Shown here: positions 3,544 through 27,700 of the stretch, piece after piece
How positions within the stretch are numbered: position 1 is the stretch's first letter
Layout of the letters: the number at the start of each line of letters is the position of its first letter
Assembly: GCF_000172995.2 (NCBI RefSeq)
Contig: NC_014731.1
Span: 1-32,000, forward strand
Length of the DNA: 32,000 nt
DNA from: Halogeometricum borinquense DSM 11551
GTDB taxonomy: Archaea; Halobacteriota; Halobacteria; Halobacteriales; Haloferacaceae
Reading direction: 5' to 3'
The notes under the pieces: generated by a model
Told to the model about the DNA's origin: nothing
The model's database searches: none
Seen by the model: the letters and a program-made list of their open reading frames with translations, nothing else
Made by a program: the position numbers and the translations under genes

Positions 3544-3698
3544 TGGGTACTTTCCAGTCCTCATCGAGCTTGAAGACTTTGACGAAACGTTCGGTGACAT
3601 CGATGTTAGACGGTTTGATAGGATTCTTATTTTGTGTAATTGGAGAGAAAATTCTATACGGCCGTACTTCATCGGTCAATAGTACCCAGACAGGAGCC
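3544..3698. promoter_or_regulatory. Shared divergent promoter region between the methyltransferase and the GHKL ATPase
   Basis: 155-bp AT-rich spacer between the two head-to-head start codons (3543 minus, 3699 plus). It contains TATA-like strings such as ttctatac near 3652-3659. No transcript data, so individual boxes are not assigned. Confidence 0.4.
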
Positions 3699-12537: not shown

Positions 12538-14343
12538 TCAGGCGAAATCGGTGAGGTTCGTCGCCGTCAGGTTCTCCGTATCCTCTTCCAGTTCGTGGTC
12601 AAGGGAACTCCGACTGGGGACCTCAAACTCGACAACCGGAGTGTCCGACGAGACAATGTCGATGATCGTGTGCAGCTCATCCATGATCCCGACCGCACCG
12701 TCATGTGTACATCCCGTGATTGTACACCAAGCTCGTGATCGCGTGATCGCCACGAACACTTCGTTTCGCGCCTGCACAAGCTCGCGATACGGGTTTGTGA
12801 TTGCATTGTTGAGTCCAACGACATACACCGAGGCAGCTTCATTTCCTTTTGCGAGATGAATCGTCGAGATCGTTACCTCACCCGGCCGCGAAAATTCGGT
12901 TCTGTCACCTTCCCACGCACAGGTCGCTCCTAAATCATGGGCGCGCAGCAATGACTGAAGCTGCTGACCGCGATCCTTTGCGTCCAGCCCAAGCGGGACG
13001 ACGAGGATACGCTCCGGAGGTAAGCCCTCCTCACGAACATCAGCCACAACCTGGTCAACGACCCAGTCGAGCTCTGCAGCTGGATCGTCGAACGCTTCGG
13101 CCGACACGAATGGCCCGGCTGTATCAAACGTAGAGAGTGGATGTGGTGAGTTTGCTTCAGGCCGCTGAAGACGTGCCTTACTCCCTGTTTTCCGGAAGTC
13201 ACCATCGACGTCATAGCCGAGATTCTCCCAGCCGTCTTGCCGCGTAATTGCTTGGACAGGACCGCCATCACGGAGGAGTCCCATCCCAAGGACGTGTGCA
13301 GTCAACAGAACCTCCAGGGGTGCGCGATAGGATTTCCGCATGATGTGGCTTTTTTGCACCCCGTTTGAATACGACCCGCTCAGGTCAACAACAGGATCGC
13401 CGGTGTCGTCAACGCCGAAAATTTCCTTGGGGCTCGGGGCACGCAAACTGTGGAGATTTTGTGCCTCGTCGTAGCCCCAAATGAGCCGGTTGGACGAGTC
13501 AAGTGCAGCGAGACACATATTGAAGAAGTGCGGACCGAAGTCTTGTGCCTCATCGACGAGAATCGCATCAAAGAGGTCTGGGATGTCCCCGGTCGCAAGC
13601 AGTTCAGCCGCCACCGCTTCCTGGGGATCAGTGTCGGAGCCGAATTCTGCACGAGCATCGGTCACCGAACGGAAGGTAGCGTTTGGAGTTGCCTCTGCGA
13701 TTCGTTTGTATATGCCCTCGCCAGTTGTGTGGCCACCCCACCCGTGGATGATCTCGATGGACGAATCACTCTCCGCCAGTGATTGTCCGTTCGAGAACCG
13801 CCTGTAGAATCGTTCCGTGAGATCGGTAATGTGATCGTAGAGACTCTTCGTTTGGAACGTCAGCGCGATGGTCCAGTCCTTGTGATCGACCGCCATTTTC
13901 GCCGCCTTCATGGCAAGGAGGACGGTCTTCCCAGACCCAGCGATCCCTCGAATTTGCTGCGGTCCAGGTGGGATCCGCATGCCGATCTTTTCCTGTTTCA
14001 AATCGAACTTCGCAAGCTGACTCGTGACGTGTTCGTAGTAGTCGCGTCGCGTCTCAGGATTTGCGGGCGGCGACATACTGATATCGCTGATTGCCTGTCC
14101 GCAGCTGAGGACAGCACGTGCTGTGTCATATTCGGCTGAGGTTAACGGGTCAAACGTGCGGATCGCGTCAAGTTGCTCCCGGAGTGCCACAGGCGTTAAC
14201 TCATCACCTAACAGCACGCGAGGGGCGCTTGGCCCCGTAAAGCCGCGTGCCTCCCATTCCTCGCGGGTGATATTCGGGAGGACAACAAACGGATTCATCG
14301 GGATTGCTACCTGTCCACCGTCCAAGAGCTCTGGTTCGTCCAT
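12538..14343 (-). CDS. Superfamily-1 (UvrD/Rep-like) helicase-family ATPase
   Basis: 601-aa ORF. It has Walker A GIAGSGKT (13924-13947), motif II ILVDEAQDF (DEAQD = 13540-13554), a UvrD_C-like ISTIHLAKGNEAASVYVVG and motif VI VAITRSRAW. About 125 N-terminal residues have no recognisable motif, and no nuclease motif was seen. Confidence 0.85.
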   Translation of the reverse strand: MDEPELLDGGQVAIPMNPFVVLPNITREEWEARGFTGPSAPRVLLGDELTPVALREQLDAIRTFDPLTSAEYDTARAVLSCGQAISDISMSPPANPETRRDYYEHVTSQLAKFDLKQEKIGMRIPPGPQQIRGIAGSGKTVLLAMKAAKMAVDHKDWTIALTFQTKSLYDHITDLTERFYRRFSNGQSLAESDSSIEIIHGWGGHTTGEGIYKRIAEATPNATFRSVTDARAEFGSDTDPQEAVAAELLATGDIPDLFDAILVDEAQDFGPHFFNMCLAALDSSNRLIWGYDEAQNLHSLRAPSPKEIFGVDDTGDPVVDLSGSYSNGVQKSHIMRKSYRAPLEVLLTAHVLGMGLLRDGGPVQAITRQDGWENLGYDVDGDFRKTGSKARLQRPEANSPHPLSTFDTAGPFVSAEAFDDPAAELDWVVDQVVADVREEGLPPERILVVPLGLDAKDRGQQLQSLLRAHDLGATCAWEGDRTEFSRPGEVTISTIHLAKGNEAASVYVVGLNNAITNPYRELVQARNEVFVAITRSRAWCTITGCTHDGAVGIMDELHTIIDIVSSDTPVVEFEVPSRSSLDHELEEDTENLTATNLTDFA

Positions 14344-16374: not shown

Positions 16375-16635
16375 ATGCGAGTCCTCGACCGGAAACGATA
16401 CTCCTACGTCTTACTGGCCCGCGACGGGGAGTGGATTCTCACGTTCTTACTCGGCGGCCCCGTCGAGCGCGACGTCTCCGTGCGATTGACGCCCGTAGAG
16501 ATCACTGCAATCGAAGCCGGTGACTCGTCGGCCGCCGACCTGGTCGAGAAATTCAGCGCTGACCTATCGGCCACCGAGGACAGACAGATAACTCCCACCG
16601 TCTGGCCTGCAAAGGACGCCGAGAGTGTGTCGTAG
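16375..16635 (+). CDS. Hypothetical 86-aa acidic protein
   Basis: An internal ATG at 16375 in the 16114-16635 ORF gives MRVLDRKRYSYVLLARDGEWILTFLLGGPVERDVSVRLTPVEITAIEAGD. This has haloarchaeal-like acidic composition, whereas the upstream part of the track ORF looks non-coding. Confidence 0.4.
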   Translation: MRVLDRKRYSYVLLARDGEWILTFLLGGPVERDVSVRLTPVEITAIEAGDSSAADLVEKFSADLSATEDRQITPTVWPAKDAESVS

Positions 16636-16967: not shown

Positions 16968-17712
16968 GGCACTGTCTAGTTAGTGACCTCCTCAACCGGC
17001 GTACGTCCGTTGAGCGATTGATGCGGTCGTTGAAAGTTATAGTATTGCGCAAATTGTATGAACCACTCGCGGACGCTTCCGTGACTGCCCACCCACGAAT
17101 TATGGAAGCGGTCGACTCGCATTTTGAGGGTATGAAACCATTTTTCGATGAGGTTTCGCTCGACGTAGTCAAGCCGACCGCTCAATCCTAATCGAGAGAG
17201 GGCAGTCTGATAGCCATAGCCATCAACCAGAAACACAGCATCTGAGAGATCATGTTTCTCGGAAAGTCGATGGAGAAACGCAGCAGCCGGATCGGTACCA
17301 TGCCGTCCAAACAACTCGACATCGAGAATCAGCTTCGTCTCGATGTCTATTGCGGCGTACAACCAAGACCACTCACCGTTGATTTTGACAGCGGTCTCAT
17401 CAACCGCAACCCGCTTCGGCGTTGCCTCAGGCGGGTTGTGACCGCTGTCAGCCAGTCGATGTACCCACTGCCAAACAGCTTGATGAGAGCGTTCAACGCC
17501 GAGTATTCGAAGAATTTCTTTTGTCTCTCTAAGCGAACACCCGGTCGCGTGGAGCTGGACGGCGAACACCCTGACGGGTGTCGCCGTCCGCTCACGCTCC
17601 CAAGTTTCTTCATAATCCGTCTCAAAGCACTCGCTGAGCAGGTCTGCGAGCATCTTGACCAACTAACTCAACGACCTGCTCGTTCCTCAAACTGGCTTAA
17701 CTAGACAGTGCC
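16968..17712 (-). mobile_element. IS6-family insertion sequence (ISH-type), copy B, intact, with 8-bp target-site duplication
   Basis: 745 bp. The terminal inverted repeats are GGCACTGTCTAGTTA at 16968-16982 and its reverse complement at 17698-17712. It is flanked by a perfect direct repeat GCCTATTT, the 8-bp size typical of IS6. Confidence 0.92.
16976..17653 (-). CDS. IS6-family DDE transposase (intact)
   Basis: It carries VAVDETAVKINGEWSWLYAAID (first Asp region, a hallmark IS6 string), FLVDGYGY (second Asp) and ERNLIEKWFHTLKMR (Glu region). I prefer the ATG at 17653 (MLADLL); the track start at 17662 is a TTG three codons upstream. Confidence 0.9.
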   Translation of the reverse strand: MLADLLSECFETDYEETWERERTATPVRVFAVQLHATGCSLRETKEILRILGVERSHQAVWQWVHRLADSGHNPPEATPKRVAVDETAVKINGEWSWLYAAIDIETKLILDVELFGRHGTDPAAAFLHRLSEKHDLSDAVFLVDGYGYQTALSRLGLSGRLDYVERNLIEKWFHTLKMRVDRFHNSWVGSHGSVREWFIQFAQYYNFQRPHQSLNGRTPVEEVTN

Positions 17713-17897: not shown

Positions 17898-18302
17898 TCA
17901 GAGGTTGCTTTCGAGCAACGAGACGATTGACTCCATCCGTTTGTCGACTTTGTCCATGTTGGTGCACGGTTCTTTGTCCACCGTGAGGACTCCATCTTCG
18001 TAGCTGATGTCACCGGTCATCCCTGCTTCGTTCTTGAACACGACCGACTCGAGGTCCGCCTGGAGGGCTTCCCGCCCCAGTTCGTCGCTACAGATCGCCT
18101 CGAAGGCATCGATTGTCGGCTGGAAGTACACTTTCGTCCATCCCTCGAACCAGAGATCTTCGTTGACTCTCTCGTCGATGAGTGATTCCCACTCGATATC
18201 GAGACCGACCTGGAAACCGGCTGCGTCGTCCATCGATTCCTTTAGGGACGGCATTTCATCCTCCTTGAACTCCTTTACTTTTCGCTTATCTCCTAGATCC
18301 AT
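17898..18302 (-). CDS. Acidic hypothetical protein (134 aa)
   Basis: ATG-initiated ORF with strongly acidic, haloarchaeal-type composition (EDEMPSLKESMDDAAGFQVGLDIEWESLIDERVNEDLWFEGW). No motif recognised. Confidence 0.6.
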   Translation of the reverse strand: MDLGDKRKVKEFKEDEMPSLKESMDDAAGFQVGLDIEWESLIDERVNEDLWFEGWTKVYFQPTIDAFEAICSDELGREALQADLESVVFKNEAGMTGDISYEDGVLTVDKEPCTNMDKVDKRMESIVSLLESNL

Positions 18303-18336
18303 TAATTTTTCACTCGGCTATAATATTTATCCTTAG

Positions 18337-18546
18337 TCATTTAACACTACTTATTCGAATCGTCCTTTCACCGCGAGACGCACCGCCTGACGACGGATTT
18401 GGGACACCTGTGTCGAAAGCTTCGCTATCGGGATAGACGTCAACCAGTGTTTCCAGGCGACCCAAGTACTCTTGCTGGTCCGGCTCGGGAACCGGATACG
18501 CCGACCACGGGTCAGCTGTCGGATACTTTTTGATCGGAAGAAACAT
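18337..18546 (-). CDS. 69-aa ORF carrying one copy of the xLxRLExLxxxYPD repeat motif
   Basis: MFLPIKKYPTADPWSAYPVPEPDQQEYLGRLETLVDVYPDSEAFDTG. The string YLGRLETLVDVYPDS matches the unit that repeats about 30 times in the divergent giant gene starting 10 nt away. It could be a real small paralogue or an inverted gene fragment. Confidence 0.35.
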   Translation of the reverse strand: MFLPIKKYPTADPWSAYPVPEPDQQEYLGRLETLVDVYPDSEAFDTGVPNPSSGGASRGERTIRISSVK

Positions 18547-18555
18547 CTTCAGAGT

Positions 18556-20139
18556 ATGAACGACGAGCCCTCCGGCGGAGACGACGTGACCACTGATGAG
18601 ACCGATTCCATCGTGGTCGAGACACTACTCGACGCGCTGAGCCCAGCCGAGGAACTCGGCGACGGAAGGGTCGATGAGGTCGACGACCGTCGGAGGCAGG
18701 CCGAGCAACTCGATGGACTCGTCGCCGAACGCTCACCTGACGAGGGACAGTCTCACCTCGTCGCCGTCGCATATACTGCGATGGTGGACGCTGTCGAGGC
18801 TGGTCGGTTCGAGCGTCTCGCCGTCCCCATCGACCGCCTCGCGACTCTCGTCGGAAGACACCCGTCGTCCGTGCATCTCCGAACGCTGCTGGCTAGGATT
18901 CTCGCCAAGGCAACGTGGGACGAGGGTGCGGCGGGACGGTTCGACGCGCAGGCGGCTCACCTGGGCCACCTCGAATCGCTGGCAGAGAGGGCGCCAGACG
19001 ACGAGGTCACGACTGCCCTCGCACGGGCACGCTTTTTCGCCGCATATCACACGGGGGCGGCCGAACGCTTCGACGAACTCGGGACGCATATCGACCGGCT
19101 CGACTGGCTGGTCGAGGACACAGACGACGTGGGGGTACGACAGGAGTTCGCCCAGGCGTTAGTCAACGCCATGATCGACGCGGGCAAGGCCGGTCGTCTC
19201 GACGCCCTCGACGATCGATTGAGCCGCCTCGATCTCCTAGTCGCCGAGTACCCACACTCACAACTCCAGGTGTCACTCGCGAATGCCCTTGCCATCACCA
19301 CGTTCCATTCCCTGGAGGCAGATCGCGTCGACGACTGTCAGACCCACCTCGACCGCCTCGACGACCTCGCCGCCAAGTACCCGAACACGGACGCCATCCA
19401 GGGCCACTGTACCAGCGCACACTGCCACGTGGTCACCTCCCAAGGCGACCAGCCTGTATGCGAGCGGTCCCTGGACCGTCTCGAAACGCTCGCGACGGAC
19501 AACCCCGACACAATCCCGGTCCAGCTCAGGGTATCCCAGGCCTTCCTCGGCGCGGCACTCGCCGGCCGAAAGCTCCCCGACGGGTTCCGACCCCGTCTCG
19601 AACGGCTCGATGTCCTCCTCAGTGCCGACGGTAACTCCGATACCGACTGGCAGCAGCGACTCGCTGAGACCATCGTTTCCACCGGCCTGGGGCCCGTGGA
19701 CAGCGCTCGACTCGGCGACAGCCTAGAGGCACTGCTCGACAGTCTAGACTCCCTCGTCGCGGACCACCCTGACGACGACCTGCTTCGTCTCGTGTTCGCC
19801 CGGGCGCTCCAGTGGACCACGGCTGCCAAGTGTAAGGCGGGACAGTTCAACGCAACGGAGGCGTCGATCGATCGTCTGGAGCGGCTGGCAACCGAGACAC
19901 CAGACTCCGACCCGGTCCGCCACGTGTTCGCCCGGACCAGCGTCAACGCAGGTATCGACGCGGCGAGGCCGGACGACTCGACATCCTCGAATCCCACATC
20001 CACCGGCTCGCGCGCCTGGTGGCTGACCATTCGGACCCGCACTTCCGTAGCGCCCTGGCGAAGGCCCACCCCGTCGCGACAGTACACCAAGGGCGGGCCG
20101 CCCGATTCGACCAGGTCAAGGCCCATCTCGACAGCCTAG
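18556..20139 (+). CDS. Giant 44-aa-repeat alpha-solenoid protein, 5' segment (frame ends after a 1-nt frameshift near 19962)
   Basis: The ATG at 18556 (MNDEPSGGDDVTTDE) has no signal peptide. About 11 units of the form HLDRLDxLAxxYPDxxxVQxxLAxALxNAxxxxGxAGRFDxxxx follow. After VNAGIDA (about 19962) the translation turns into Arg/Ser/Pro/Thr-rich junk, while the repeat continues in the frame of the next ORF. Confidence 0.75.
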   Translation: MNDEPSGGDDVTTDETDSIVVETLLDALSPAEELGDGRVDEVDDRRRQAEQLDGLVAERSPDEGQSHLVAVAYTAMVDAVEAGRFERLAVPIDRLATLVGRHPSSVHLRTLLARILAKATWDEGAAGRFDAQAAHLGHLESLAERAPDDEVTTALARARFFAAYHTGAAERFDELGTHIDRLDWLVEDTDDVGVRQEFAQALVNAMIDAGKAGRLDALDDRLSRLDLLVAEYPHSQLQVSLANALAITTFHSLEADRVDDCQTHLDRLDDLAAKYPNTDAIQGHCTSAHCHVVTSQGDQPVCERSLDRLETLATDNPDTIPVQLRVSQAFLGAALAGRKLPDGFRPRLERLDVLLSADGNSDTDWQQRLAETIVSTGLGPVDSARLGDSLEALLDSLDSLVADHPDDDLLRLVFARALQWTTAAKCKAGQFNATEASIDRLERLATETPDSDPVRHVFARTSVNAGIDAARPDDSTSSNPTSTGSRAWWLTIRTRTSVAPWRRPTPSRQYTKGGPPDSTRSRPISTA

Positions 20140-22682
20140 AAGCGCTGGCGGCAGACGCTCGCCACGAGGACGAAGTCCTGACCCACTACGCCAATGCCCT
20201 GGCGGACGCCGCCCAGTACGCGGACGACGCCGGTCACAGCGAGGGCTACTGGAGCCGGTTCGACCGATTCGAGGCCCTGGCTGCGGACGCTCCCGATAGC
20301 CGCGTCCCGTTCCACCTCTCCAATGCACTCTTCGACACCAGCAGGATCCTCCTCGATCCCGTCTTCGACGAGGAATCGGACGTCCAGGTCGATTTCGGGG
20401 TGATCGAGGCTTGTCTCGACCGGCTAGACCGGCTCACCGACGACCACCCCGAGGACACCGAGATACAACTGCAATTCGCGAGGGCACTCGCGAATCGCGT
20501 GTGTGCAGCCCCCTTCGCGGACGACGGGAGTCACCTCGGCGAGACGTCCGTCCGCTTCCACCTCGACCGTCTCGACGCCTTGGCGGCCAGGTATCCGGAC
20601 GCAACGTGGATCCAGTCCGAACTGGCCAGTGCCCTGTACAACGCGGCGGTTGCAGCGGCCGACGGTGATCACGTCGCGGACCGACGGTCCGCCCAAGCAC
20701 GTCTCGACGCCCTGGCTACCGACTACCCCGACACCGACGATGTACAACGCATGCTCGCGAAGACCCTCTCGCTGGCTACGTTCCACGACTCCGAGGCCGG
20801 TCAGTTCGAACGGGTCGAGACACACCTCGACCGTCTCGAAACCCTCGCGTTCGACCACCCGGCCGGCGACGCGTGTCAGTCCGAACTCGCCAGTGCCCTC
20901 GCAAACGTCGCTCCCTACCAGCGTCGGGATGGGTACGTCGACGACCTCGCGGCCCGGTTCGACCGATTCGAGACGGTGTCCATCGCCCATTCCGACGTGG
21001 GGATCGCCCGGTCCCTCGCGAAGGGGCTGGTGAGCACGGTCCGGTCGCTCGTCGTCCCGGTCTATATGGACGGCAGTGACAGACGACTGGAGTACGACAC
21101 CATCCAGCGGTACCTCGACCGGCTGGAGGGGCTCGCAGGTGAGTATCCTACAGACGAGGAGATTCATCGACGGCTCGCCGAAGGCCTCGTCACCGGCGTC
21201 ACTGCTGCGTCCCACCTCGCACACGACGGTCGTATCGAGTCCGACGAGCACGAACGCTACCTCGATCGCCTGTCGGAACTGGCGACCGAGTTCCCAACGG
21301 ACGACGGAATCACAGCGCAACTGGCGACGGCCCACCGCAGGGTCGCGCGGGACGCCGGGGGAGTCGGTACCTTCGAGACCCAACAGCGCCACCTCGACCG
21401 CCTCCACGAGTTGGCTTACGACCACCCACACAACGATGACGTGTTGTTCGAACTCGCCCAGGCGCTGGAGGACGTCGCGTCCGTCGACGGCGATCCCGAT
21501 GCGGTCGTCCCAGTGGATTGTGAGAGTTACTTCGACGTGGTCGAGGCCGCCGCTCTCGCGTACCCAGCAGACGTGAACGTCCTTTTTCAGATTTCTAGAG
21601 GCCTCGTCACCGCGGCGGCGTCCGAAGGGAACGCTGGTCGGTTCTCGGAGCTCCGTGCGTGTATCGACCAGCTTGAGGAAATGGTCACCGAGTACCCCCT
21701 CCAGAGCGAGATCCGTATCCAGCTGGCCGTCGCCCACTTCAACGCGACGGCGCCAGCCGGCAAAGCCGGTCGGTTTGACCAGGTCCACTCACACCTCGAC
21801 CGTCTGGAGACGCTGGCTGCCGAGTATCCCGACACCAGACGAGAGGTTCACGAGCGGCTGATTAAGGCTCTGTTCAACACCGCGAAATACCAGGGGCAAG
21901 CCGACCGGTTCGACGCCCTGACCGACACGATCGACCGGGCCGAGGAACTGGCCGCGACCTACCCATCCAGTGACGAGGTCCAGCGGACCTACGCCCTGAC
22001 CCGTTTCACCGCGGCCACGGCCGCGAGACGAGCCGACCGGTTCGAGGAGTGTCGGATCCACATCGACCGCCTGGACGACCTCGTGACCGACTATCCCCAC
22101 GTCCCCGAGATCAGACGCCGGTTCGCGAAGGCGCTCCACGGCATGATGGACGCGTTGTGGAGCGCCGACCGTGTCGATGAGGCACGGGCCACGATGGACC
22201 GCCTCCGATCGGCGGCAGCAGCGTTTCCGGCTGACGAGGAGCTGCAGTGTGTCTCCGCGCGAGCTCTGGTGAACCACTCACGGAATGCTGGTGCGGCGTG
22301 TCACCTTGACCTCCTCTCCGACCACCTCGACCAGCTGGTGACCCTCTACGAATCGTATCCCAGCGGGGAGACTGCCCTCCGCTTGGCCCAGGGACTGTTC
22401 AACACCGTCAGATATCGAGGGGAGGCCGGGCAGTTCGATGATCTCTTCCGGTCGCTCGACCGCCTCGACGACCTCGCCGCCAAGTACCCCGACGGTGACG
22501 TTCCCTACCTGTACGCCAAAACCCTCTCTATCGTCTCGAAATACCTAGGAGAAAACGGCCGGTCCGAGACGGCTGAGCAGTGTCTCGGCCGCATTGAGGC
22601 ACTGGCCGCGGCGCACCCGGCTGACGAGGTGATCCAGTCACGGCTGTCCGAGACACGCCAGCGAAACGCGGTTGAGGAATGA
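20019..22682 (+). CDS. Giant 44-aa-repeat alpha-solenoid protein, 3' segment (continuation of 18556-19962)
   Basis: About 19-20 further units are present (HLDRLETLAFDHPAGD, YLDRLEGLAGEYPTDE, HLDRLHELAYDHPHND, HLDRLETLAAEYPDTR, HIDRLDDLVTDYPHVP, SLDRLDDLAAKYPDGD). The frame is open upstream of the track's GTG start at least to 19920. From 19962 it reads GEAGRLDILESHIHRLARLVADHSDPH, completing the unit broken in the 5' segment. Confidence 0.8.
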   Translation: MADHSDPHFRSALAKAHPVATVHQGRAARFDQVKAHLDSLEALAADARHEDEVLTHYANALADAAQYADDAGHSEGYWSRFDRFEALAADAPDSRVPFHLSNALFDTSRILLDPVFDEESDVQVDFGVIEACLDRLDRLTDDHPEDTEIQLQFARALANRVCAAPFADDGSHLGETSVRFHLDRLDALAARYPDATWIQSELASALYNAAVAAADGDHVADRRSAQARLDALATDYPDTDDVQRMLAKTLSLATFHDSEAGQFERVETHLDRLETLAFDHPAGDACQSELASALANVAPYQRRDGYVDDLAARFDRFETVSIAHSDVGIARSLAKGLVSTVRSLVVPVYMDGSDRRLEYDTIQRYLDRLEGLAGEYPTDEEIHRRLAEGLVTGVTAASHLAHDGRIESDEHERYLDRLSELATEFPTDDGITAQLATAHRRVARDAGGVGTFETQQRHLDRLHELAYDHPHNDDVLFELAQALEDVASVDGDPDAVVPVDCESYFDVVEAAALAYPADVNVLFQISRGLVTAAASEGNAGRFSELRACIDQLEEMVTEYPLQSEIRIQLAVAHFNATAPAGKAGRFDQVHSHLDRLETLAAEYPDTRREVHERLIKALFNTAKYQGQADRFDALTDTIDRAEELAATYPSSDEVQRTYALTRFTAATAARRADRFEECRIHIDRLDDLVTDYPHVPEIRRRFAKALHGMMDALWSADRVDEARATMDRLRSAAAAFPADEELQCVSARALVNHSRNAGAACHLDLLSDHLDQLVTLYESYPSGETALRLAQGLFNTVRYRGEAGQFDDLFRSLDRLDDLAAKYPDGDVPYLYAKTLSIVSKYLGENGRSETAEQCLGRIEALAAAHPADEVIQSRLSETRQRNAVEE

Positions 22683-22737
22683 CCGTTTCCACGGCCGTTC
22701 CTCTCGTGTCGAAGGTGTCGGCGTTCGTGGAGACGGT

Positions 22738-25700
22738 CTAGTCGGCCGTCCCGTCGGATTCGAAGGCGGCCGCGGCGAGGTCGTCGCCCACGACTTCCCG
22801 AAGCCCGTGGTCGAGTCGAGCGACGTAGTCCGCGCTGACACGTGGGTTGGCAGTCGAGAGTTCGTCGGCCGACCGTCTGAACGTCCGTTTGAGCGTGTCG
22901 TCGGTCCGGACGATGCCAGCCTCAGCCGCAGTTTCGATGGACGCACGGACAGCGGCGACGTAGGCTTCGATCTGTTCGAACGGTTCGCCACCTTTCACCC
23001 CTTCCACGACGATGTCGGCGTACACTTCCTCCAGGAACCCGACAGGATCATCGACGCTCGCACTCGCGGCGAACGCGCGGAGTTCATTGTCGAGGCGTCG
23101 CCGCCACGTCGTCGTGTCGTCCTCGACCGCTTCGACCGTATCGACGTAGGCGCGCGTATACACGGACGCGACGAACTCGGCGGGGTCCTCGGGTACCGCT
23201 CGCGTTGCGGTCGCCTCGATTCGTTCGGTGACGACATCCAGCCACGTCTCCACGTTCGCGTGGTCGCTGTTGGTGCGGCCGACGACAGCGAGTGCCCGGG
23301 CATAGATCCGTTCGAAGATACCGGCCCGCTCGATGCCGACCCACTCGAAGTCGGCCCGTTCCTCGGCGGCGGTGAGGACCTCCGTAACGCCGAATCTGAC
23401 TTCCGCTGGTTCGGCTTCGACGGCGAGCGCGAGTGCGGTTCCGAAGACGGAGCTGACGTAGTTCACGGGATGTGGAGGGTTATCCGCCGCCGTTGCCCCG
23501 GTTTCGACCTGAGAGAGTACTGCCTGTACCAAACGGTCATGCGACCGGTTGCCGATATCGGCCCGCGTCACTACTGTTTGGAGGACCGCCGCATCCACTT
23601 CCGCGAAGGCGTCGAACCACTCCATCTTCGTCGGCCCGTCGATCTCCCAGCGGCACTCACGGAAGGACCTGGCGAGCGAGGTGATCCATTCCTGGGAGAC
23701 GCTCGCCTCCCCGTTTGCCGCCCAGTTCACTGCTGCATCGCCAAAAACGCCATCTAGGAACGCGACTGGGTCAGTGACCAAGTCGCCCGCGGCTGCCACC
23801 GTCTCGATGCGGTCGGTGAGCGCCTCGAACCAGACACGCTCCCGGCGTGGCGAGATTCCGGACGCCGAGTCGCGTACCCGCCGACGTGAACTCTTGGACG
23901 ATGAGTCGTCGTCGAATCCGTGTACGTGGGTTGACAGCGCCTCGCGGTAGACCGCCGTCAGGAATCGCTCTCGATGGGCTGTTTCTGTCGCCGCGCCCCG
24001 GGTTACGGACCTGTCGTACAGTTCGATCCAATCCTCGAACCGTGGCGAGTCCGAAAACGGAAGCGCGCCGATGCCGTAGGGGCCGTCGTTGACGCCGTCA
24101 GCGCTCTGCTCGACGCTGGCAAACGCCGCGAGGGCTGCCGCGTGGAGGTCAGCACGCACCGTCCACGCCTCGGCAGCGAAGTCCGACGCCGCGACGGTGT
24201 CGACGAGCCGGTCGCACGCACCGAATAACCGTTCCGCACGGTCGAAGTTGCGGGCTGCGACGACGCGCCGGACGGCCTGCCCGTAGACCTCGGCGACGAA
24301 CGCCACAGGGTCGTCGAGATCCGCGGTCGTCGCGGTTCGGCAGAGGTCCTCCCCGACCGCCACCAGCCAGGGCTCGATCCGTTCGTCAGGACATCCGTGT
24401 TCGAATACCCAGAAGCCGAGTGCGCCAGTGTAGGCGTGCCGGAGCAACTCCGCTCGATTGTCCTGGCGCTGTATGAACACGACCGAATCCCTGATCTGGG
24501 AGCCGAACGCGTCCACCCATGGCGAGAGATTGTCGGGAGAACACGCTGCGCCAGCCACGGCCCCGATTGTGGACGCGAAACTGTTCCCGATGACGAACGC
24601 TGCGAATCCCTCCTCGTTAGTTGCGGCCGCCTGTTGGACGAGTGCGGCGACCGGCGCGAACGCATCGTCGGCCGCCGTGGTGTCCGCAACAGTCTCGATG
24701 ATTCGCTCGGTCATCGCGCCGTAGACGCGACAGCGGAGCGTCAGTCCCGGTTCTTCGGAGATTTCCCCCGCATCGACCGTCCTGTGAAGGACTTGATCGA
24801 CACACGCGAGTGCGCCGTGATTCGGTCCCGAACCGTCTGTCGGCCACGCGAGCCGTGCCAGAGCGTTCGCGAATGCACCCACGAACGGTTCGTGGTCGCC
24901 GCCGACGGAGTCGCGTCCGGGCGGAGTCGCGGTCTCGTTCGTGAGAGCCACCGCACGGTCAGCAATGGCTTCGATCCACTCGTCAGTCGTGGGGTTCTCG
25001 CTCGCCACCGCTGCCATGGCAGTGCCGGAGACCGCTCCTCGGTACCTGATGGCCCCGTCGGTATCGCTTCGATTCAGCCCGACATCCCCAACGAGGTCGT
25101 CGAACAGTGCCAGCCACTGTTTTGCGGCACTCGGTCGCGCGGTCCGCGCGACAACAGCGACGGCGTCGGCGAGTACCCGACCCACGAACGCCGCGTCGAG
25201 ATCTTTGTCGGGCATGCCAGCGATTGCCGCCAATGTACTCTGGTCCGTGATTTTCTCCACGTCGAGCGTCAGACGGGACGGGTGTCGGGTGTCCGGCCAG
25301 TCCATCGCCGAAAGGAGGTCGTCGGCGACCGCTCGGGATGTCCGATCAGGTGCGACTGCGATATCGTCTAGCTCGAACTCGGTTCGGTCGCGCCAGGCGG
25401 CGACGTCGGCACAGCCGGTCCGGTCGGCGATGGCGTCGAACTGCTCGCGGAACTCGTCGTCACAGATGAGCAGTGCACCCGAACAGGTGCCGTCAGCGAC
25501 CCACTCGACCAGCGACCGAACCCCCGCATCACTCGTGATCCGTGCTGGCCCGGCACCGTAGGTTGCGACCACGACCGCGTCCGACGTGGCGTCGATGCCC
25601 ACTCTGATGTAGTCGGGGCGGCTGAGATCGGAGAGTCTGACCGTCGCCCCCCACGTCGTGAGTTCCGTGGCGACGTTCGCTGCAAGCCGTCGCTTCCCGC

Positions 25701-26970
25701 TCGCTTTCGGTCCCGAGAGGACGACGACCCCGCCATCGAGTGCATCGACGACCTCGTTGACGCTGACCCCCGCCGGTCCGTCGTCCGTTTCGGGGCCGTC
25801 GTCCGAGTTCGGGAACTCCCGCTCTGCTGCAGCCGTGTGTAACGTCTCTGGTTCCTCCCAGTGCCAGGCACCGACGAGTGGAGCGGAGCCGTACTCGTCG
25901 GGTCCGACCGCGGCCTTGTCCAGTGACGATCCGACTGCTCGCATGCCAGCTCGGATCTCCTCGAAGGCGGCACTCGCGTTGGTGATGGCTGTCTCGGTTT
26001 CGGGCTGGGCCGCCAACCGCTGGCCGATCTTCGTCCGTATCGACTCGGACGCGAACACCCGAAGGTGATCGATCGTTCCCGGTGGGAGATCGAAGGCGAT
26101 TTCGAGCGCTTCGGCGGCTCCCGCCAGCGGCCGATGGCGAACGAGCGGCTCGAACCACGCCGTGTCGTCGGCGGCGAGCGAACTCGCGACGAGAGCGAGT
26201 GCGGTGGCCACCGCTGGCGACAATGCAGTCGGGTCACGACCGGCGTCCTCGGCACGTGGATGGAGCGACGAGATGAGTTCGAATGTCGCCTCACCCAGTG
26301 GTTCGACCGTGATATCACAGTCACCGACCACCGTCCTGACATCCGGTCCGACCAGAACCGTTTCGGACCCGTACTGCGAGAGCGAGAGGAAGGCCGCGGG
26401 TGTGACGGTCTCCTCGATGGTCCCGACCCGCTCTTGGAGGCCCTCGTCCGCGAACTCGTAGTTAGGATAGGTGATGCGTTCGACGAGGGACGCGCGATCC
26501 TCGTTACTCAGTCCAGCAGGACGTCGGTGGCTGGTGCGCTTGCGGATTTCGTCGATCACATCGCTGCTCTCCGCAGGCGGCGTTCGAACCACGAGCACTG
26601 AATCGACCTGCCCGACGATGTCACTGGACATGGGGAGATCGCTTTGGCATAACCAGTCGAGACTCCGTGGCCGCGTTACGAGGACGGCACCTCCGGGACG
26701 AGCGAACAGGGCGTTCATGCTGGGCGGTTCTCCGTCCGTCGAGTAGTCTTCGTCGCTCAGATCGAACGTCGCCGCGACAAAATCGTCGATGACCACGAGT
26801 TCGTCGTCTTCGACGGCGCTTGCCGCCGCGAGGCGCTCGACGGACGGGCCGACCTGCCGCAGGTGATGTGACTTCCCAACGCTGGGTGCCCCGAGGACGA
26901 GTGTAACTTCGCCTGGGCTGACCGCGTTGCACAGTTCGCCAGGTGTGACCTCTCGAATAGCATCTTCCAT
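22738..26970 (-). CDS. 1410-aa tandem P-loop NTPase with a long alpha-helical repeat C-terminus (STAND/NLR-like architecture)
   Basis: The first P-loop has GAPSVGKS (26869-26892) with LVVIDDF about 28 aa later. The second has SGPKASGKR (about 25690-25716) with ALLICDDEF about 75 aa later. Residues about 660-1330 (22981-24993) carry at least six copies of a degenerate unit ending in DPVAFVAEVYGQA, DPVAFLDGVFGDA, HPVNYVSSVFGTA, DPAEFVASVYTRA, DPVGFLEEVYADI. There is no signal peptide. Confidence 0.85.
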   Translation of the reverse strand: MEDAIREVTPGELCNAVSPGEVTLVLGAPSVGKSHHLRQVGPSVERLAAASAVEDDELVVIDDFVAATFDLSDEDYSTDGEPPSMNALFARPGGAVLVTRPRSLDWLCQSDLPMSSDIVGQVDSVLVVRTPPAESSDVIDEIRKRTSHRRPAGLSNEDRASLVERITYPNYEFADEGLQERVGTIEETVTPAAFLSLSQYGSETVLVGPDVRTVVGDCDITVEPLGEATFELISSLHPRAEDAGRDPTALSPAVATALALVASSLAADDTAWFEPLVRHRPLAGAAEALEIAFDLPPGTIDHLRVFASESIRTKIGQRLAAQPETETAITNASAAFEEIRAGMRAVGSSLDKAAVGPDEYGSAPLVGAWHWEEPETLHTAAAEREFPNSDDGPETDDGPAGVSVNEVVDALDGGVVVLSGPKASGKRRLAANVATELTTWGATVRLSDLSRPDYIRVGIDATSDAVVVATYGAGPARITSDAGVRSLVEWVADGTCSGALLICDDEFREQFDAIADRTGCADVAAWRDRTEFELDDIAVAPDRTSRAVADDLLSAMDWPDTRHPSRLTLDVEKITDQSTLAAIAGMPDKDLDAAFVGRVLADAVAVVARTARPSAAKQWLALFDDLVGDVGLNRSDTDGAIRYRGAVSGTAMAAVASENPTTDEWIEAIADRAVALTNETATPPGRDSVGGDHEPFVGAFANALARLAWPTDGSGPNHGALACVDQVLHRTVDAGEISEEPGLTLRCRVYGAMTERIIETVADTTAADDAFAPVAALVQQAAATNEEGFAAFVIGNSFASTIGAVAGAACSPDNLSPWVDAFGSQIRDSVVFIQRQDNRAELLRHAYTGALGFWVFEHGCPDERIEPWLVAVGEDLCRTATTADLDDPVAFVAEVYGQAVRRVVAARNFDRAERLFGACDRLVDTVAASDFAAEAWTVRADLHAAALAAFASVEQSADGVNDGPYGIGALPFSDSPRFEDWIELYDRSVTRGAATETAHRERFLTAVYREALSTHVHGFDDDSSSKSSRRRVRDSASGISPRRERVWFEALTDRIETVAAAGDLVTDPVAFLDGVFGDAAVNWAANGEASVSQEWITSLARSFRECRWEIDGPTKMEWFDAFAEVDAAVLQTVVTRADIGNRSHDRLVQAVLSQVETGATAADNPPHPVNYVSSVFGTALALAVEAEPAEVRFGVTEVLTAAEERADFEWVGIERAGIFERIYARALAVVGRTNSDHANVETWLDVVTERIEATATRAVPEDPAEFVASVYTRAYVDTVEAVEDDTTTWRRRLDNELRAFAASASVDDPVGFLEEVYADIVVEGVKGGEPFEQIEAYVAAVRASIETAAEAGIVRTDDTLKRTFRRSADELSTANPRVSADYVARLDHGLREVVGDDLAAAAFESDGTAD

Positions 26971-27208
26971 GAATTCCCTACGACCGCTCCCGCCGACGAC
27001 TGCGTCCGGGCGGCAGACCCCGCCGAGTGTATCTCGTCAGTAAGTCTACTTGTGAGATAATTGTTTGCTGTTGGAATAGCCATCGACGAGTCACTGATAC
27101 GTCACCTGAAGATATTTTCCCGCTTGTCCACCAAGAGTCGCTATACAGTGTGACCAGCCGACGAGAGCACCCAAGAACGAGGATGCAAGGACACAACGAA
27201 ACCGGATA

Positions 27209-27700
27209 GTGGCCATCCCAAACATCTCGGATGACCGTCATCGAGTCGATACGCACTTCCAGCGTTTGTAGCTCATAGCGGGCCAACAGTCCAGCAATCC
27301 CAAGCTGCAGCGCGACGTATTCGGCGGTATTGTTTCCCGTCCGGGAGCTGACGGGACGGCCGAGCCGGGCGAGTTCGGTTTCGGTAGCGTCCATGATGAC
27401 CGCGCCTGCACCCGCTGGGCCGGGGTTGCCGCGTGAACTTCCATCGACGTAGAGGATGAACGAGTTGCCCGTCGGCTCCGGGGCCGGTGGCTGGCTGAGA
27501 TCCGACACCAGCACGCTGTCGAGCGCGCGACGCAACTCGGATGGGGTGGTTGTGGGATCAAACAGGCCACCATATCCGGGCACGGCGGCATCGATGGCGT
27601 CGGTGGCAGCTGCTATCTCGTAGCCGATACGTGCAAGTACCTCATCGACGAGCGTCGCGAGTGGTGAGCAGTGTTCGACCGGGAGCGGTTCCTCAGTCAC
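27209..27700 (-). pseudogene. rnhA: Type-1 RNase H, N-terminal two-thirds (gene disrupted, probably by inversion)
   Basis: From the GTG at 27698-27700 the sequence reads VTEEPLPVEH...SFILYVDGSSRGNPGPAGAGAVIM...TGNNTAEYVALQLGI...VRIDSMTVIRDVWDGH. This supplies the first Asp, the Glu and the second Asp of the RNase H DEDD set in canonical order. After His (27209-27211) the ORF continues to 26978 as non-RNase-H-like sequence. The track ORF's 5' extension to 27859 is antisense to the C-terminal fragment. Confidence 0.8.

What the first reader, a model, noticed from the sequence alone, without database searches (positions are those of the whole stretch)
22738..26970. 1410-aa tandem P-loop NTPase with a previously unfamiliar W...DPVxF(V/L)xxV(Y/F) helical repeat: STAND/NLR-like sensor candidate
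Seen in the sequence:
- There are two separate Walker A/B pairs. GAPSVGKS with LVVIDDF is unusually compact, about 28 aa apart. GPKASGKR with LLICDDEF is about 75 aa apart.
- About 850 mostly helical residues follow.
- Within about 22981-24993, a unit of the form W(I/L)xx(I/V)xxRIExxA...DPVAF(V/L)xxVYxxA recurs at least six times, at irregular spacing of 45-185 aa.

Established knowledge: an NTPase followed by a long repeat-sensor region is the architecture of STAND/NLR-type immune and signalling proteins (Avs and related).

Inference: this is an NTP-driven switch with a repeat sensor. No effector domain such as a nuclease, protease or TIR was recognised by eye. The effector may therefore be novel, or may be supplied by a neighbour.
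Basis: partly seen in the sequence, partly recalled or inferred. Interest (0 to 1): 0.7.

Follow-up and report, generated by a model that had tools for sequence, protein, structure and literature searches.

The report
Haloarchaeal giant two-P-loop repeat protein
This is a real, conserved but uncharacterised 1410-residue protein found only in salt-loving archaea, built like a STAND/AAA+ ATP-driven switch with a long helical-repeat arm; its central ATP-binding motif is altered and no immune role is shown.

Summary
The ORF 22738-26970 (-) is a real gene: Halogeometricum borinquense DSM 11551 WP_006054795.1, "hypothetical protein", on a plasmid-sized contig. It has 29 full-length haloarchaeal orthologue clusters and dN/dS of 0.26-0.42.

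Both Walker pairs exist. The first Walker A lysine is kept in only 15 of 30 close relatives. The second reads GKR, not GK[ST], in all 30, whereas 41 of 43 distant relatives have GK[TS].

AlphaFold2 gives two small alpha/beta P-loop domains (moderate confidence) and a confident 34-helix solenoid for residues 600-1410. Five repeat units score 38-52 bits against at most 5.2 bits in shuffles. Distant relatives carry the same motif as regular tandem arrays with a 48-50 residue period.

Fold matches are generic AAA+/STAND. Pfam STAND models are sub-threshold and PADLOC finds nothing. The upstream RNase H-like gene is not a conserved partner. An 86-residue and a 105-residue orphan gene are.

Verdict: a new haloarchaeal variant of the AAA+/STAND-plus-solenoid design. 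The "STAND-like sensor" reading is plausible but unproven, and the immune role is speculative.

The parts
22738..26970 (-). Whole gene, 1410 aa (H. borinquense WP_006054795.1, 'hypothetical protein')
   Evidence: ORF list and translation. 29 full-length orthologue clusters. Exact database match. dN/dS 0.26-0.42.
26581..26970 (-). N-terminal compact alpha/beta P-loop-like domain (aa 1-130)
   Evidence: The AlphaFold2 model shows alternating strands and helices with block pLDDT mostly 55-84. The motifs TLxLGAPxxG, hhhhDDF and RPRxLDW are conserved across the wider family.
26869..26892 (-). Walker A 1, GAPSVGKS (aa 27-34). Canonical in this protein, but degenerate in half of the close family.
26779..26799 (-). 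Walker-B-like LVVIDDF (aa 58-64)
   Evidence: The motif is DDF in 17 of 30, EDF in 9 of 30, and DDL, QEF or ENF in the remaining 4 of 30.
25891..26358 (-). Helical linker domain (aa 205-360). It contains the superfamily-invariant LDLPPGT motif (aa 293-299, nt 26074-26094), a long helix at 323-353, and the most hydrophobic stretch of the protein (aa 249-267, nt 26170-26226).
   Evidence: AlphaFold2 block pLDDT 74-91 for residues 251-360 (73-77 for 205-240; one dip to 47 at 241-250). Invariant columns. Hydropathy.
25291..25761 (-). Central P-loop (NOD-like) module (aa 404-560)
   Evidence: AlphaFold2 shows five strands alternating with helices. It aligns with the canonical GxxGxGKT module of distant relatives. 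Foldseek gives AAA+/STAND-type hits.
25690..25713 (-). Walker A 2, GPKASGKR (aa 420-427). Arg replaces the Ser/Thr.
   Evidence: GKR in 30 of 30 close relatives, against GK[TS] in 41 of 43 distant relatives.
25453..25476 (-). Walker B 2, ALLICDDE (aa 499-506). C503 and D504 are invariant.
25207..25230 (-). AAIAGMPD (aa 581-588). Possible counterpart of the GxP motif of the STAND helical domain, but the alignment is ambiguous.
   Evidence: A581 and D588 are invariant and G585 and P587 nearly so. The distant relatives' motif GNPEIAKIA lies at a similar distance from Walker A.
22741..25173 (-). C-terminal alpha-solenoid, 34 helices (aa 600-1410)
   Evidence: AlphaFold2 pLDDT 84.9, pTM 0.83. Foldseek gives only generic HEAT/karyopherin-like hits with TM 0.14-0.26.
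24274..24369 (-). Repeat unit 1 (aa 868-899), WLVAVGEDLCRTATTADLDDPVAFVAEVYGQA
   Evidence: 52.3 bits. Coordinates verified.
23734..23832 (-). Repeat unit 2 (aa 1047-1079)
   Evidence: 46.8 bits. Coordinates verified.
23434..23526 (-). Repeat unit 3 (aa 1149-1179)
   Evidence: 41.4 bits. Coordinates verified.
23149..23244 (-). Repeat unit 4 (aa 1243-1274)
   Evidence: 47.5 bits. Coordinates verified.
23014..23106 (-). Repeat unit 5 (aa 1289-1319)
   Evidence: 38.1 bits. Coordinates verified.
16375..16635 (+). s86, an 86-aa orphan gene co-distributed with the big gene. Here it lies about 6 kb away, with an IS6 transposase and the TPR gene in between.
   Evidence: Homologues lie within 10 kb of the big gene in 11 of the other loci examined. 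The family has only 15 clusters among 5.8 billion proteins, and at least 5 sit on the same contigs as the big gene. In PLSDB it occurs in 4 plasmids, all of which carry the big gene.
18472..22682 (+). Convergent giant TPR/DUF6584/BTAD-like gene. It is split here into 555-aa and 887-aa overlapping ORFs.
   Evidence: Pfam. It is an intact 1375-aa gene at the same position in Hfx. mediterranei. Relatives lie next to the big gene in L001 and L015.
26978..27700 (-). RNase H-like gene (240 aa as called by NCBI) ending 8 nt upstream of the big gene. Strain-specific neighbour, not a conserved partner.
   Evidence: Pfam RNase_H 1.3e-8 over half of the domain. NCBI gene call. A homologue is found only in L010, on the opposite strand.

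Best explanation
The gene encodes a member of a rare family of giant multidomain P-loop proteins restricted to Halobacteria.

Shown:
- The domain order is a compact N-terminal P-loop domain, a helical linker domain with an invariant LDLPPGT motif, a central AAA+/STAND-type P-loop module, and a C-terminal alpha-solenoid.
- The solenoid derives from a two-helix repeat of about 49 residues (W-h-D-x-h-E-x-R-A ... P-x-x-F-L-x-x-V-Y). The repeat is regular in distant relatives and eroded to five recognisable units here.
- In the clade containing this protein, the central Walker A threonine is fixed as arginine (GKTT to GKRR).

Inferred mechanism: the protein acts as a STAND-like switch or scaffold.
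- The solenoid binds a protein partner or ligand.
- The central module has probably lost Mg-dependent hydrolysis. It would then serve as a nucleotide-binding or purely conformational and oligomerisation module.
- The N-terminal P-loop domain, still canonical in this protein, is the only plausible working NTPase and the likely output end.
- The protein works together with two small co-distributed orphan proteins (s105 and s86).
- It belongs to the accessory, plasmid-borne gene pool, so a role in inter-genome conflict or defence is possible but not shown.
For: - Real gene under purifying selection: 29 full-length orthologue clusters and dN/dS 0.26-0.42 in every domain.
- Wider family: 67 representative clusters (E at or below 1e-3) among 1.84 billion. 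Many align in a single stretch over profile positions about 5-545, and all named members are Halobacteria.
- Central module: it aligns with the canonical GxxGxGKT/ECRDE module of distant relatives. GKR occurs in 30 of 30 close relatives, against GK[TS] in 41 of 43 distant ones.
- Fold: AAA+/STAND-type hits include NRC3, Dark, RPP1, Avs4 (probability 0.96), SAMD9, NorQ, Hda, ClpB/Hsp104, and viral DnaC/DnaA-like proteins.
- Pfam on 31 distant relatives: AAA_16 in 22, nSTAND3 in 19 (best 1.6e-8) and nSTAND_NTPase5 in 17.
- Solenoid: pLDDT 84.9.
- Repeats: 38-52 bits against 5.2 bits in shuffles. Distant relatives have tandem arrays with a 48-50 residue period.
- Small-gene linkage.
- Accessory location: plasmids or megaplasmids in 5 PLSDB records, variable neighbours, and an IS6 transposase, a type II methyltransferase and a defence-type helicase in the window.
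- Precedent: STAND receptors with degenerate Walker motifs exist (KpAvs8), and most prokaryotic STAND sensors are TPR-like helical repeats (PMC13581612).
Against: - No curated STAND, AAA+ or defence model reaches threshold on this protein.
- Pfam hits in the relatives mostly cover only the P-loop and mostly fall below the gathering score.
- The PDB sequence-profile search gives only P-loop-local hits, headed by SIMIBI proteins: ArsA, SRP54 and FtsY.
- The N-half model is only moderate (pLDDT 63.5) and its Foldseek TM-scores are low (0.1-0.36).
- A winged-helix domain is not evident in this clade.
- There is no recognisable effector domain.
- No relatives occur in viral contigs, and defence-gene enrichment was not tested statistically.
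- Loss of the Walker A Ser/Thr and decay of P-loop 1 in half the clade argue that NTP hydrolysis is not central to the function.
Confidence: 0.4

Rival explanations
1. Non-immune regulatory or scaffolding STAND/AAA+-like protein. A large solenoid platform assembles other big repeat proteins (TPR or HEAT neighbours) or regulates a cellular process, as MalT/AfsR-type or other non-defence STAND clades do.
For: - Giant TPR or HEAT-repeat genes sit beside it in several genera: the window, Hfx. mediterranei, L001, L015, L021 and L003.
- The neighbouring protein matches the BTAD domain.
- There is no effector domain and no PADLOC hit.
- 391 of 589 prokaryotic STAND clades are not defence-associated (PMC13581612).
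- dN/dS is uniform, with no fast-evolving sensor region.
Against: - The phyletic distribution is patchy and largely plasmid-borne, and the neighbourhoods vary.
- Defence-type genes lie nearby in some loci.
- No DNA-binding or signalling output domain was detected.
Confidence: 0.3
2. Functionally decayed pseudo-NTPase. The clade has lost NTP chemistry altogether, and the protein survives only as a passive helical-repeat binding protein.
For: - The central Walker A Ser/Thr is replaced by Arg in 30 of 30 close relatives.
- The P-loop 1 lysine is lost in 15 of 30.
- Repeats are eroded compared with the distant relatives.
- The locus is rearranged here: s105 is lost, the TPR gene is split, and an IS element lies nearby.
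Against: - G420, G425, K426, R427, C503 and D504 remain invariant, which points to a retained, possibly altered, ligand site.
- dN/dS of 0.19-0.41 in the central module shows constraint.
- This particular protein keeps a canonical GKS plus DD in domain 1.
Confidence: 0.17
3. ClpB/Hsp104-like tandem AAA+ remodelling machine: two nucleotide-binding domains separated by a coiled-coil middle domain, forming hexamers that thread substrates.
For: - The top Foldseek hits for the N-half are ClpB, Hsp104 and ClpA (E 1e-4 to 3e-3).
- There are two P-loop domains with a long helix between them.
- Distant relatives have a longer coiled-coil-like stretch at that position.
Against: - TM-scores are 0.14-0.19 and rmsd about 29 A.
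- Domain 1 is only about 130 residues.
- No AAA, AAA_2 or Clp Pfam model matches.
- The two modules are not detectably related beyond the P-loop (hhalign probability 8%).
- An 800-residue solenoid is alien to Clp/Hsp100 proteins.
Confidence: 0.05
4. ArsA/SIMIBI-type ATPase. One relative (Halorubrum vacuolatum SNR53219.1) is named 'arsenical pump-driving ATPase'.
For: - The best PDB sequence hits of the central-module profile are ArsA, SRP54 and FtsY (E 3e-6 to 5e-4).
- The GxGKTT-helix-strand stretch resembles the start of MinD/ArsA proteins.
Against: - The matches cover only 38-78 residues around the P-loop.
- NCBIfam ArsA scores 11.6 bits against a cut-off of 650.
- Foldseek gives AAA+/STAND hits and no SIMIBI proteins.
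- There is no arsenic-resistance context.
Confidence: 0.03

Closest known systems
STAND NTPases (NB-ARC/AP-ATPase, NACHT, nSTAND families; prokaryotic Avs and bNACHT receptors)
   Same: - Single giant polypeptide with an N-terminal domain, a central ASCE-type P-loop module, a helical region and a long C-terminal helical-repeat arm.
- Distant relatives have GxxGxGKT, an acidic Walker B and a GNP(E/L)IA-type motif about 155 residues after Walker A, followed by a winged-helix-like stretch.
- Weak Pfam hits to nSTAND3, nSTAND_NTPase5 and AAA_16, and Foldseek hits to NLRs, Avs4 and SAMD9.
- Accessory and patchy distribution.
- Degenerate Walker motifs have a precedent in KpAvs8.
   Different: - No STAND model passes its threshold on this protein, and PADLOC gives no Avs hit.
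- The N-terminal 'effector' position is occupied by a second, compact P-loop domain plus a family-specific helical domain (LDLPPGT), not by a nuclease, protease, TIR or similar.
- The central Walker A reads GKR.
- The winged-helix domain is unclear in this clade.
- The repeat type is not recognised by any Pfam TPR, HEAT or ARM model.
Clp/Hsp100 tandem AAA+ proteins (ClpB, Hsp104)
   Same: Two P-loop modules in one chain, separated by a long helical or coiled-coil segment. These proteins are the top Foldseek E-values for the N-terminal half.
   Different: Very low TM-scores. Domain 1 is far too small for an AAA+ module. There are no Clp Pfam matches and no sign of pore loops or arginine fingers. 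The protein carries an 800-residue solenoid.
HEAT/ARM/TPR alpha-solenoids (karyopherin-like)
   Same: The C-terminal 810 residues are predicted with confidence as a two-helix-hairpin superhelix. Karyopherins, transportins and CRM1 are the best Foldseek hits.
   Different: TM-scores are only 0.14-0.26 with about 10% identity. No HEAT or TPR Pfam hit. The unit is about 49 residues with its own W...RA...P..FL..VY signature.

Membership tests
STAND NTPase superfamily | Canonical Walker A GxxxxGK[ST] in the central NTPase | tested here: not met
   The motif is GPKASGKR, with Arg in 30 of 30 close relatives. The homologous position is GK[TS] in 41 of 43 distant relatives, so the ancestry is canonical but the present motif is deviant.
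STAND NTPase superfamily | Walker B strand ending in two acidic residues (hhhhD[DE]) | tested here: met
   ALLICDDE. D504 is invariant and position 505 is mostly Asp. The register relative to the ECRDE of distant relatives is uncertain.
STAND NTPase superfamily | ASCE-type core fold (AAA+-like, strand order 5-1-4-3-2) rather than the KG/SIMIBI type | tested here: inconclusive
   Foldseek hits are AAA+/STAND proteins with probabilities up to 0.96-1.0, but with weak E-values and TM-scores. Sequence-only PDB hits favour SIMIBI proteins around the P-loop.
STAND NTPase superfamily | Helical domain with a GxP motif, followed by a winged-helix domain after the NTPase | tested here: inconclusive
   Distant relatives have (A/S)xGNPEIAKIA plus a winged-helix-like LFEYL..R...T.EL....G stretch. 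This clade has AAIAGMPD at a similar distance. The alignment is ambiguous and the model is poor there, with segments below pLDDT 50 at 536-542, 561-577 and 611-620.
STAND NTPase superfamily | C-terminal superstructure-forming repeats | tested here: met
   A 34-helix solenoid with pLDDT 84.9 and profile-supported repeats.
STAND NTPase superfamily | Significant match to a curated STAND family model (NB-ARC, NACHT, nSTAND1-6, AAA_16) | tested here: not met
   On this protein: AAA_16 18.3 bits against a cut-off of 32.6, and nSTAND3 13.5 bits against 27.2. Of eight distant relatives examined in detail, one passes the nSTAND3 cut-off (28.3 against 27.2), and only over the P-loop.
Avs (antiviral STAND) and other catalogued defence systems | Match to a PADLOC-DB protein model | tested here: not met
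   No families at E at or below 0.1 for the protein. Two distant relatives give only P-loop noise (LmuB, mad8; E 1e-4 or weaker).
Avs (antiviral STAND) and other catalogued defence systems | Recognisable N-terminal effector (nuclease, protease, TIR, SIR2 and similar) | tested here: not met
   Pfam and NCBIfam find nothing in residues 1-400 except weak P-loop matches.
Avs (antiviral STAND) and other catalogued defence systems | Protection against viruses, and ligand-induced oligomerisation | not testable with these tools
   This needs genetics and biochemistry.
Clp/Hsp100 tandem AAA+ | Two full AAA+ modules matching the AAA, AAA_2 or ClpB_D2-small models | tested here: not met
   No such Pfam hits. 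Domain 1 is about 130 residues. Foldseek TM-scores are 0.14-0.19.
ArsA/SIMIBI ATPases | Full-length match to the ArsA/MinD-type models | tested here: not met
   NCBIfam ArsA scores 11.6 bits against a cut-off of 650 on the relative that carries that name. PDB hits are confined to 38-78 residues.

The most novel reading that the evidence does not exclude
The big protein, together with the two orphan small proteins s105 and s86, forms a previously undescribed conflict or defence module specific to haloarchaea. The eroded 49-residue-repeat solenoid would recognise a viral or plasmid protein. The GKR-bearing central module would act as a hydrolysis-dead oligomerisation switch. The N-terminal compact P-loop domain would be a new kind of NTP-consuming or NTP-dependent effector.
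Probability: 0.15. Interest if true: 0.7.

Novelty: new variant of a known kind. Interest (0 to 1): 0.45.

Why it matters
Archaeal immunity and signalling beyond CRISPR and restriction-modification are poorly charted, and haloarchaea are genetically tractable.

This family has about 67 clusters at 50% identity. All are unannotated and no Pfam model covers them. It offers four things:
- an N-terminal P-loop domain sitting where STAND proteins usually carry an effector;
- a natural Thr-to-Arg replacement in Walker A that is fixed across a whole clade, which makes a test case for hydrolysis-independent NOD function;
- a new family of two-helix repeats of about 49 residues;
- a tight link to two tiny orphan genes.

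If the family proves to be a defence or conflict system, it would add a haloarchaea-specific receptor type. If not, it still defines a new protein family and corrects at least one misannotation ('arsenical pump-driving ATPase').

Tried and rejected
- Pfam, NCBIfam and PADLOC on the protein gave nothing above threshold.
- The RNase H-like upstream gene was tested as a neighbour-supplied effector and rejected. It recurs only in L010, on the opposite strand.
- A second homologue search with a 31-sequence full-length profile returned only 4 proteins, because the word index was saturated. That search was largely wasted.
- The PDB sequence-profile search of the central module gave only P-loop-local hits.
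- Foldseek of both halves against the PDB, and of the N-half against viral structures, gave generic AAA+/STAND and HEAT-like hits with no specific homologue.
- The IMG/VR scan found no relatives.
- The metagenome scan for distant relatives returned 7 loci. Together with L016, none of the 8 loci carries s86, s105 or the HEAT, TPR or helicase neighbours.
- hhalign of domain 1 against the central module gave no evidence that the two P-loops arose by duplication.
- Pfam, NCBIfam and PDB searches on s86 and s105 found nothing.
- Literature searches by accession and locus tag found nothing. The supplements of the 2026 STAND survey are not held, so I could not check whether the family is in its 589 clades.
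- A row-1 coordinate slip in alignment A1 dropped Met1. It is noted and corrected.

Full report

The ORF 22738..26970 on the minus strand encodes 1410 residues. It is identical to Halogeometricum borinquense DSM 11551 ADQ68833.1 / WP_006054795.1 (UniProt E4NVE9), annotated "hypothetical protein". The longest contig that carries it is 339 kb. The stretch 18000-27092 is 94.8% identical in DNA to the Haloferax mediterranei megaplasmid (records of about 505 kb).

A search of 5.8 billion proteins found 29 clusters. All are full length (1316-1463 aa), all are haloarchaeal, all are unnamed and none has a Pfam domain. Pairwise dN/dS is 0.26-0.42 and roughly uniform across domains. This is an expressed-type gene under moderate purifying selection, not a chance ORF in GC-rich DNA.

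Numbering caveat: the first row of alignment A1 lacked Met1, so residue numbers printed are one too low. All numbers below are true numbers, re-verified against the DNA.

**2. The two Walker pairs**

Pair 1 is G27-APSVGKS-34 and L58-VVIDDF-64. Pair 2 is G420-PKASGKR-427 and A499-LLICDDE-506.

Conservation changes their meaning:
- Among the 30 close relatives, the first lysine is kept (GKS) in only 15. The others have GTS, GQS, GGS, ELA and similar.
- The second motif is invariant at G420, G425, K426 and R427. It carries Arg where every working P-loop has the Mg-coordinating Ser or Thr. This is GKR in 30 of 30.

**3. A wider family**

A profile of residues 1-620 was scored against 1.84 billion representative proteins. 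It found 67 clusters at E of 1e-3 or better. Many are 900-2100 residues long and align in one stretch over profile positions about 5-545. The named members are Halobacteria (Haloglomus, Halorubrum, a Halobacteriales MAG). The rest come from metagenomes.

In these distant relatives:
- The central Walker A is canonical, GxxGxGK[TS] in 41 of 43.
- It is followed by hhhhECRDE, then an (A/S)xGNPEIAKIA motif about 155 residues after Walker A, then a winged-helix-like stretch.
- The window protein aligns convincingly through the NTPase core: GGVVVLSGPKASGKRR with GGLVVLxGPHGTGKTT, AVVVATY with VLFTSY, and EWVADGTCSGALLICDDE with EWLxEGxCxTVIIECRDE.

The GKR state is therefore a derived, clade-fixed change in a once-canonical ATPase.

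**4. Structure**

AlphaFold2 on residues 1-620 (19 sequences) gave pLDDT 63.5. The model shows:
- an alpha/beta domain at 1-130;
- a poorly predicted linker;
- a well-predicted helical domain at about 205-360, containing the LDLPPGT motif (largely invariant across the superfamily) and a long helix at 323-353;
- a second poorly predicted linker;
- a five-stranded alpha/beta domain at 404-560.

Foldseek against the PDB gave ClpB, Hsp104 and ClpA first (E 1e-4 to 3e-3, but TM about 0.14-0.19). After these came NRC3, Dark, RPP1, Avs4, SAMD9, NorQ, Hda, Skd3, RFC and BrxL. Against viral models the hits were DnaC-, DnaA-, clamp-loader- and MoxR-like ATPases. The fold is therefore of the AAA+/STAND kind, with no specific homologue.

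Residues 600-1410 (14 sequences) gave pLDDT 84.9 and pTM 0.83, with 34 helices of about 18-20 residues and no strands. The matches are generic karyopherin/HEAT-like, TM 0.14-0.26.

**5. Repeats**

A profile from one unit was iterated over the family. It finds five units in the protein (868-899, 1047-1079, 1149-1179, 1243-1274, 1289-1319) at 38-52 bits. The best score in 200 shuffled copies is 5.2 bits. The unit at 981-1008 is not significant.

The same signature forms regular tandem arrays with a 48-50 residue period in distant relatives. P0063, for example, has ten units in steps of 49-50 residues, reading DPxxVxxWVDAIExRAxxxAxDxDxHDxPPGxFLxNVYSM. No Pfam repeat model matches. It is the eroded remnant of a family-specific two-helix repeat that builds the solenoid.

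**6. Family assignment**

- On this protein, AAA_16 (18.3 bits) and nSTAND3 (13.5 bits) fall far below their cut-offs.
- Among 31 distant relatives, AAA_16, nSTAND3 and nSTAND_NTPase5 hit 22, 19 and 17 members respectively. In the members examined, these hits mostly cover only 40-60 residues around Walker A, and only one passes a cut-off.
- A sequence profile against the PDB finds only P-loop-local matches, headed by ArsA, SRP54 and FtsY. This explains the misnomer "arsenical pump-driving ATPase" on a Halorubrum relative.
- PADLOC finds nothing.
- The two P-loop modules are not detectably related beyond the loop.

Conclusion: the protein works like, and probably descends from, the AAA+/STAND radiation. 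Membership of any defined STAND family, or of Avs, is not established.

**7. Neighbourhood**

Twenty-odd loci from other genera were compared.

- No neighbour is universal.
- NCBI calls a 240-aa RNase H-like gene ending 8 nt before this gene. It recurs only in Halorubellus, on the opposite strand.
- The most consistent partners are two small orphan genes. s105 lies directly downstream and is co-directional. s86 is convergent with it.
- s86 homologues lie near the big gene in 11 other loci. The family has only 15 clusters in 5.8 billion proteins, and at least five sit on the same contigs as the big gene. In PLSDB it occurs in four plasmids, all of which carry the big gene.
- In this window, s86 is at 16375-16635 and s105 is missing. 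An IS6 transposase and a giant TPR gene lie in between.
- That TPR gene is intact (1375 aa) in one Hfx. mediterranei assembly (CP039140; 319 aa + 1051 aa in another, CP007554). Here it is split into 555-aa and 887-aa ORFs.
- HEAT-repeat proteins related to window 8868-10904 lie directly downstream of the big gene in Natrinema (L015, L021).
- A helicase related to window 12538-14343 (PADLOC "Helicase", 3e-95) lies 1.2 kb from it in Halovivax ruber.
- None of these partners accompanies the distant relatives.
- No relative is found in viral contigs.

**8. Interpretation**

Shown: the domain architecture, the repeat, the derived GKR state, the restriction to Halobacteria, the accessory and plasmid location, and the linkage to s86 and s105.

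Inferred: a STAND-like switch or scaffold.
- The solenoid binds a partner.
- The central module has lost Mg-dependent hydrolysis and serves as a binding or oligomerisation module.
- The N-terminal P-loop domain, canonical in this protein, is the output or working NTPase.

STAND receptors with degenerate Walker motifs, and with TPR-like sensors, are documented (PMC13581612). The same survey shows that most STAND clades are not defence-associated. A non-immune scaffold or regulator role is therefore nearly as likely. Pure decay, a Clp-like machine and an ArsA-like ATPase are less likely, for the reasons given under the rival explanations.

**9. Verdict**

The "STAND/NLR-like sensor" reading is a reasonable architectural analogy but unproven, and the immune role is speculative. 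The family is unannotated and is best described as a new haloarchaeal variant of the AAA+/STAND-plus-solenoid design. Interest is moderate.

Noticed in passing
window 18472-20139 (+) and 20019-22682 (+): The convergent giant TPR/DUF6584/BTAD-like gene is split into overlapping 555-aa and 887-aa ORFs. The Hfx. mediterranei orthologue is one 1375-aa gene in CP039140 and 319 + 1051 aa in another assembly. This could be a frameshift, a pseudogene or a sequencing error. NCBI calls only a 527-aa piece here.
   Followed up: partly
window 16375-16635 (+); L022 12354-12671 (+): Two orphan small genes, s86 and s105, form a tail-to-tail cassette tightly co-distributed with the big gene. Neither has any Pfam, NCBIfam or PDB similarity. 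s105 is absent from this window, and only a 37-residue remnant survives in Hfx. mediterranei.
   Followed up: partly
window 1789-3672 (-) and 3543-5963 (+): A low-GC (0.45-0.48) island holds a type II DNA methyltransferase (PADLOC MTase_II, 3.6e-103). Its listed ORF overlaps an 806-aa ORF with a weak GHKL ATPase match (HATPase_c_3, E 0.0012). This may be a restriction-modification or other defence module.
   Followed up: no
window 12538-14343 (-): A UvrD-like helicase matches PADLOC model PDLC03002 'Helicase' (3e-95). A 52%-identical, NERD-containing homologue lies 1.2 kb from the big gene's orthologue in Halovivax ruber (L020 13161-15296).
   Followed up: partly
window 8868-10904 (+): A 678-aa HEAT-repeat protein. 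Homologues of 50-55% identity lie directly downstream of the big gene's orthologues in Natrinema (L015 14468-16438; L021 12455-14413) and about 5 kb away in Halovenus (L003).
   Followed up: partly
window 16976-17662 (-): An IS6/IS240-family DDE transposase lies between s86 and the TPR gene. This fits a rearranged locus.
   Followed up: no
window 26978-27700 (-): A divergent RNase H-like gene. Only the N-terminal half of the RNase_H model matches, and it scores 46.9 bits against a cut-off of 300 for haloarchaeal RNase HI. It ends 8 nt before the big gene. It probably shares an operon in this strain but is not conserved elsewhere. Whether the catalytic residues are intact was not checked.
   Followed up: partly
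window 26170-26226 (-), aa 249-267 of the big protein: ALSPAVATALALVASSLAA is the most hydrophobic 19-residue window of the protein (Kyte-Doolittle 1.75). An equivalent G/A/P-rich hydrophobic stretch followed by acidic residues sits at the same position in most distant relatives examined (top-ranked in 7 of 9). It may be a membrane-associating or buried core helix.
   Followed up: partly
L003 21272-24157 (-): Halovenus rubra carries a second, partial (961-aa ORF) paralogue of the big gene about 7 kb downstream of the full-length copy.
   Followed up: no
P0094 (Halorubrum vacuolatum SNR53219.1); locus L016: A distant family member is named 'arsenical pump-driving ATPase' in GenBank. NCBIfam ArsA scores only 11.6 bits against a cut-off of 650, so this is a misannotation driven by P-loop similarity. 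It lies beside a type IV pilus-like operon (T2SSE, T2SSF, DUF7261-7289).
   Followed up: partly
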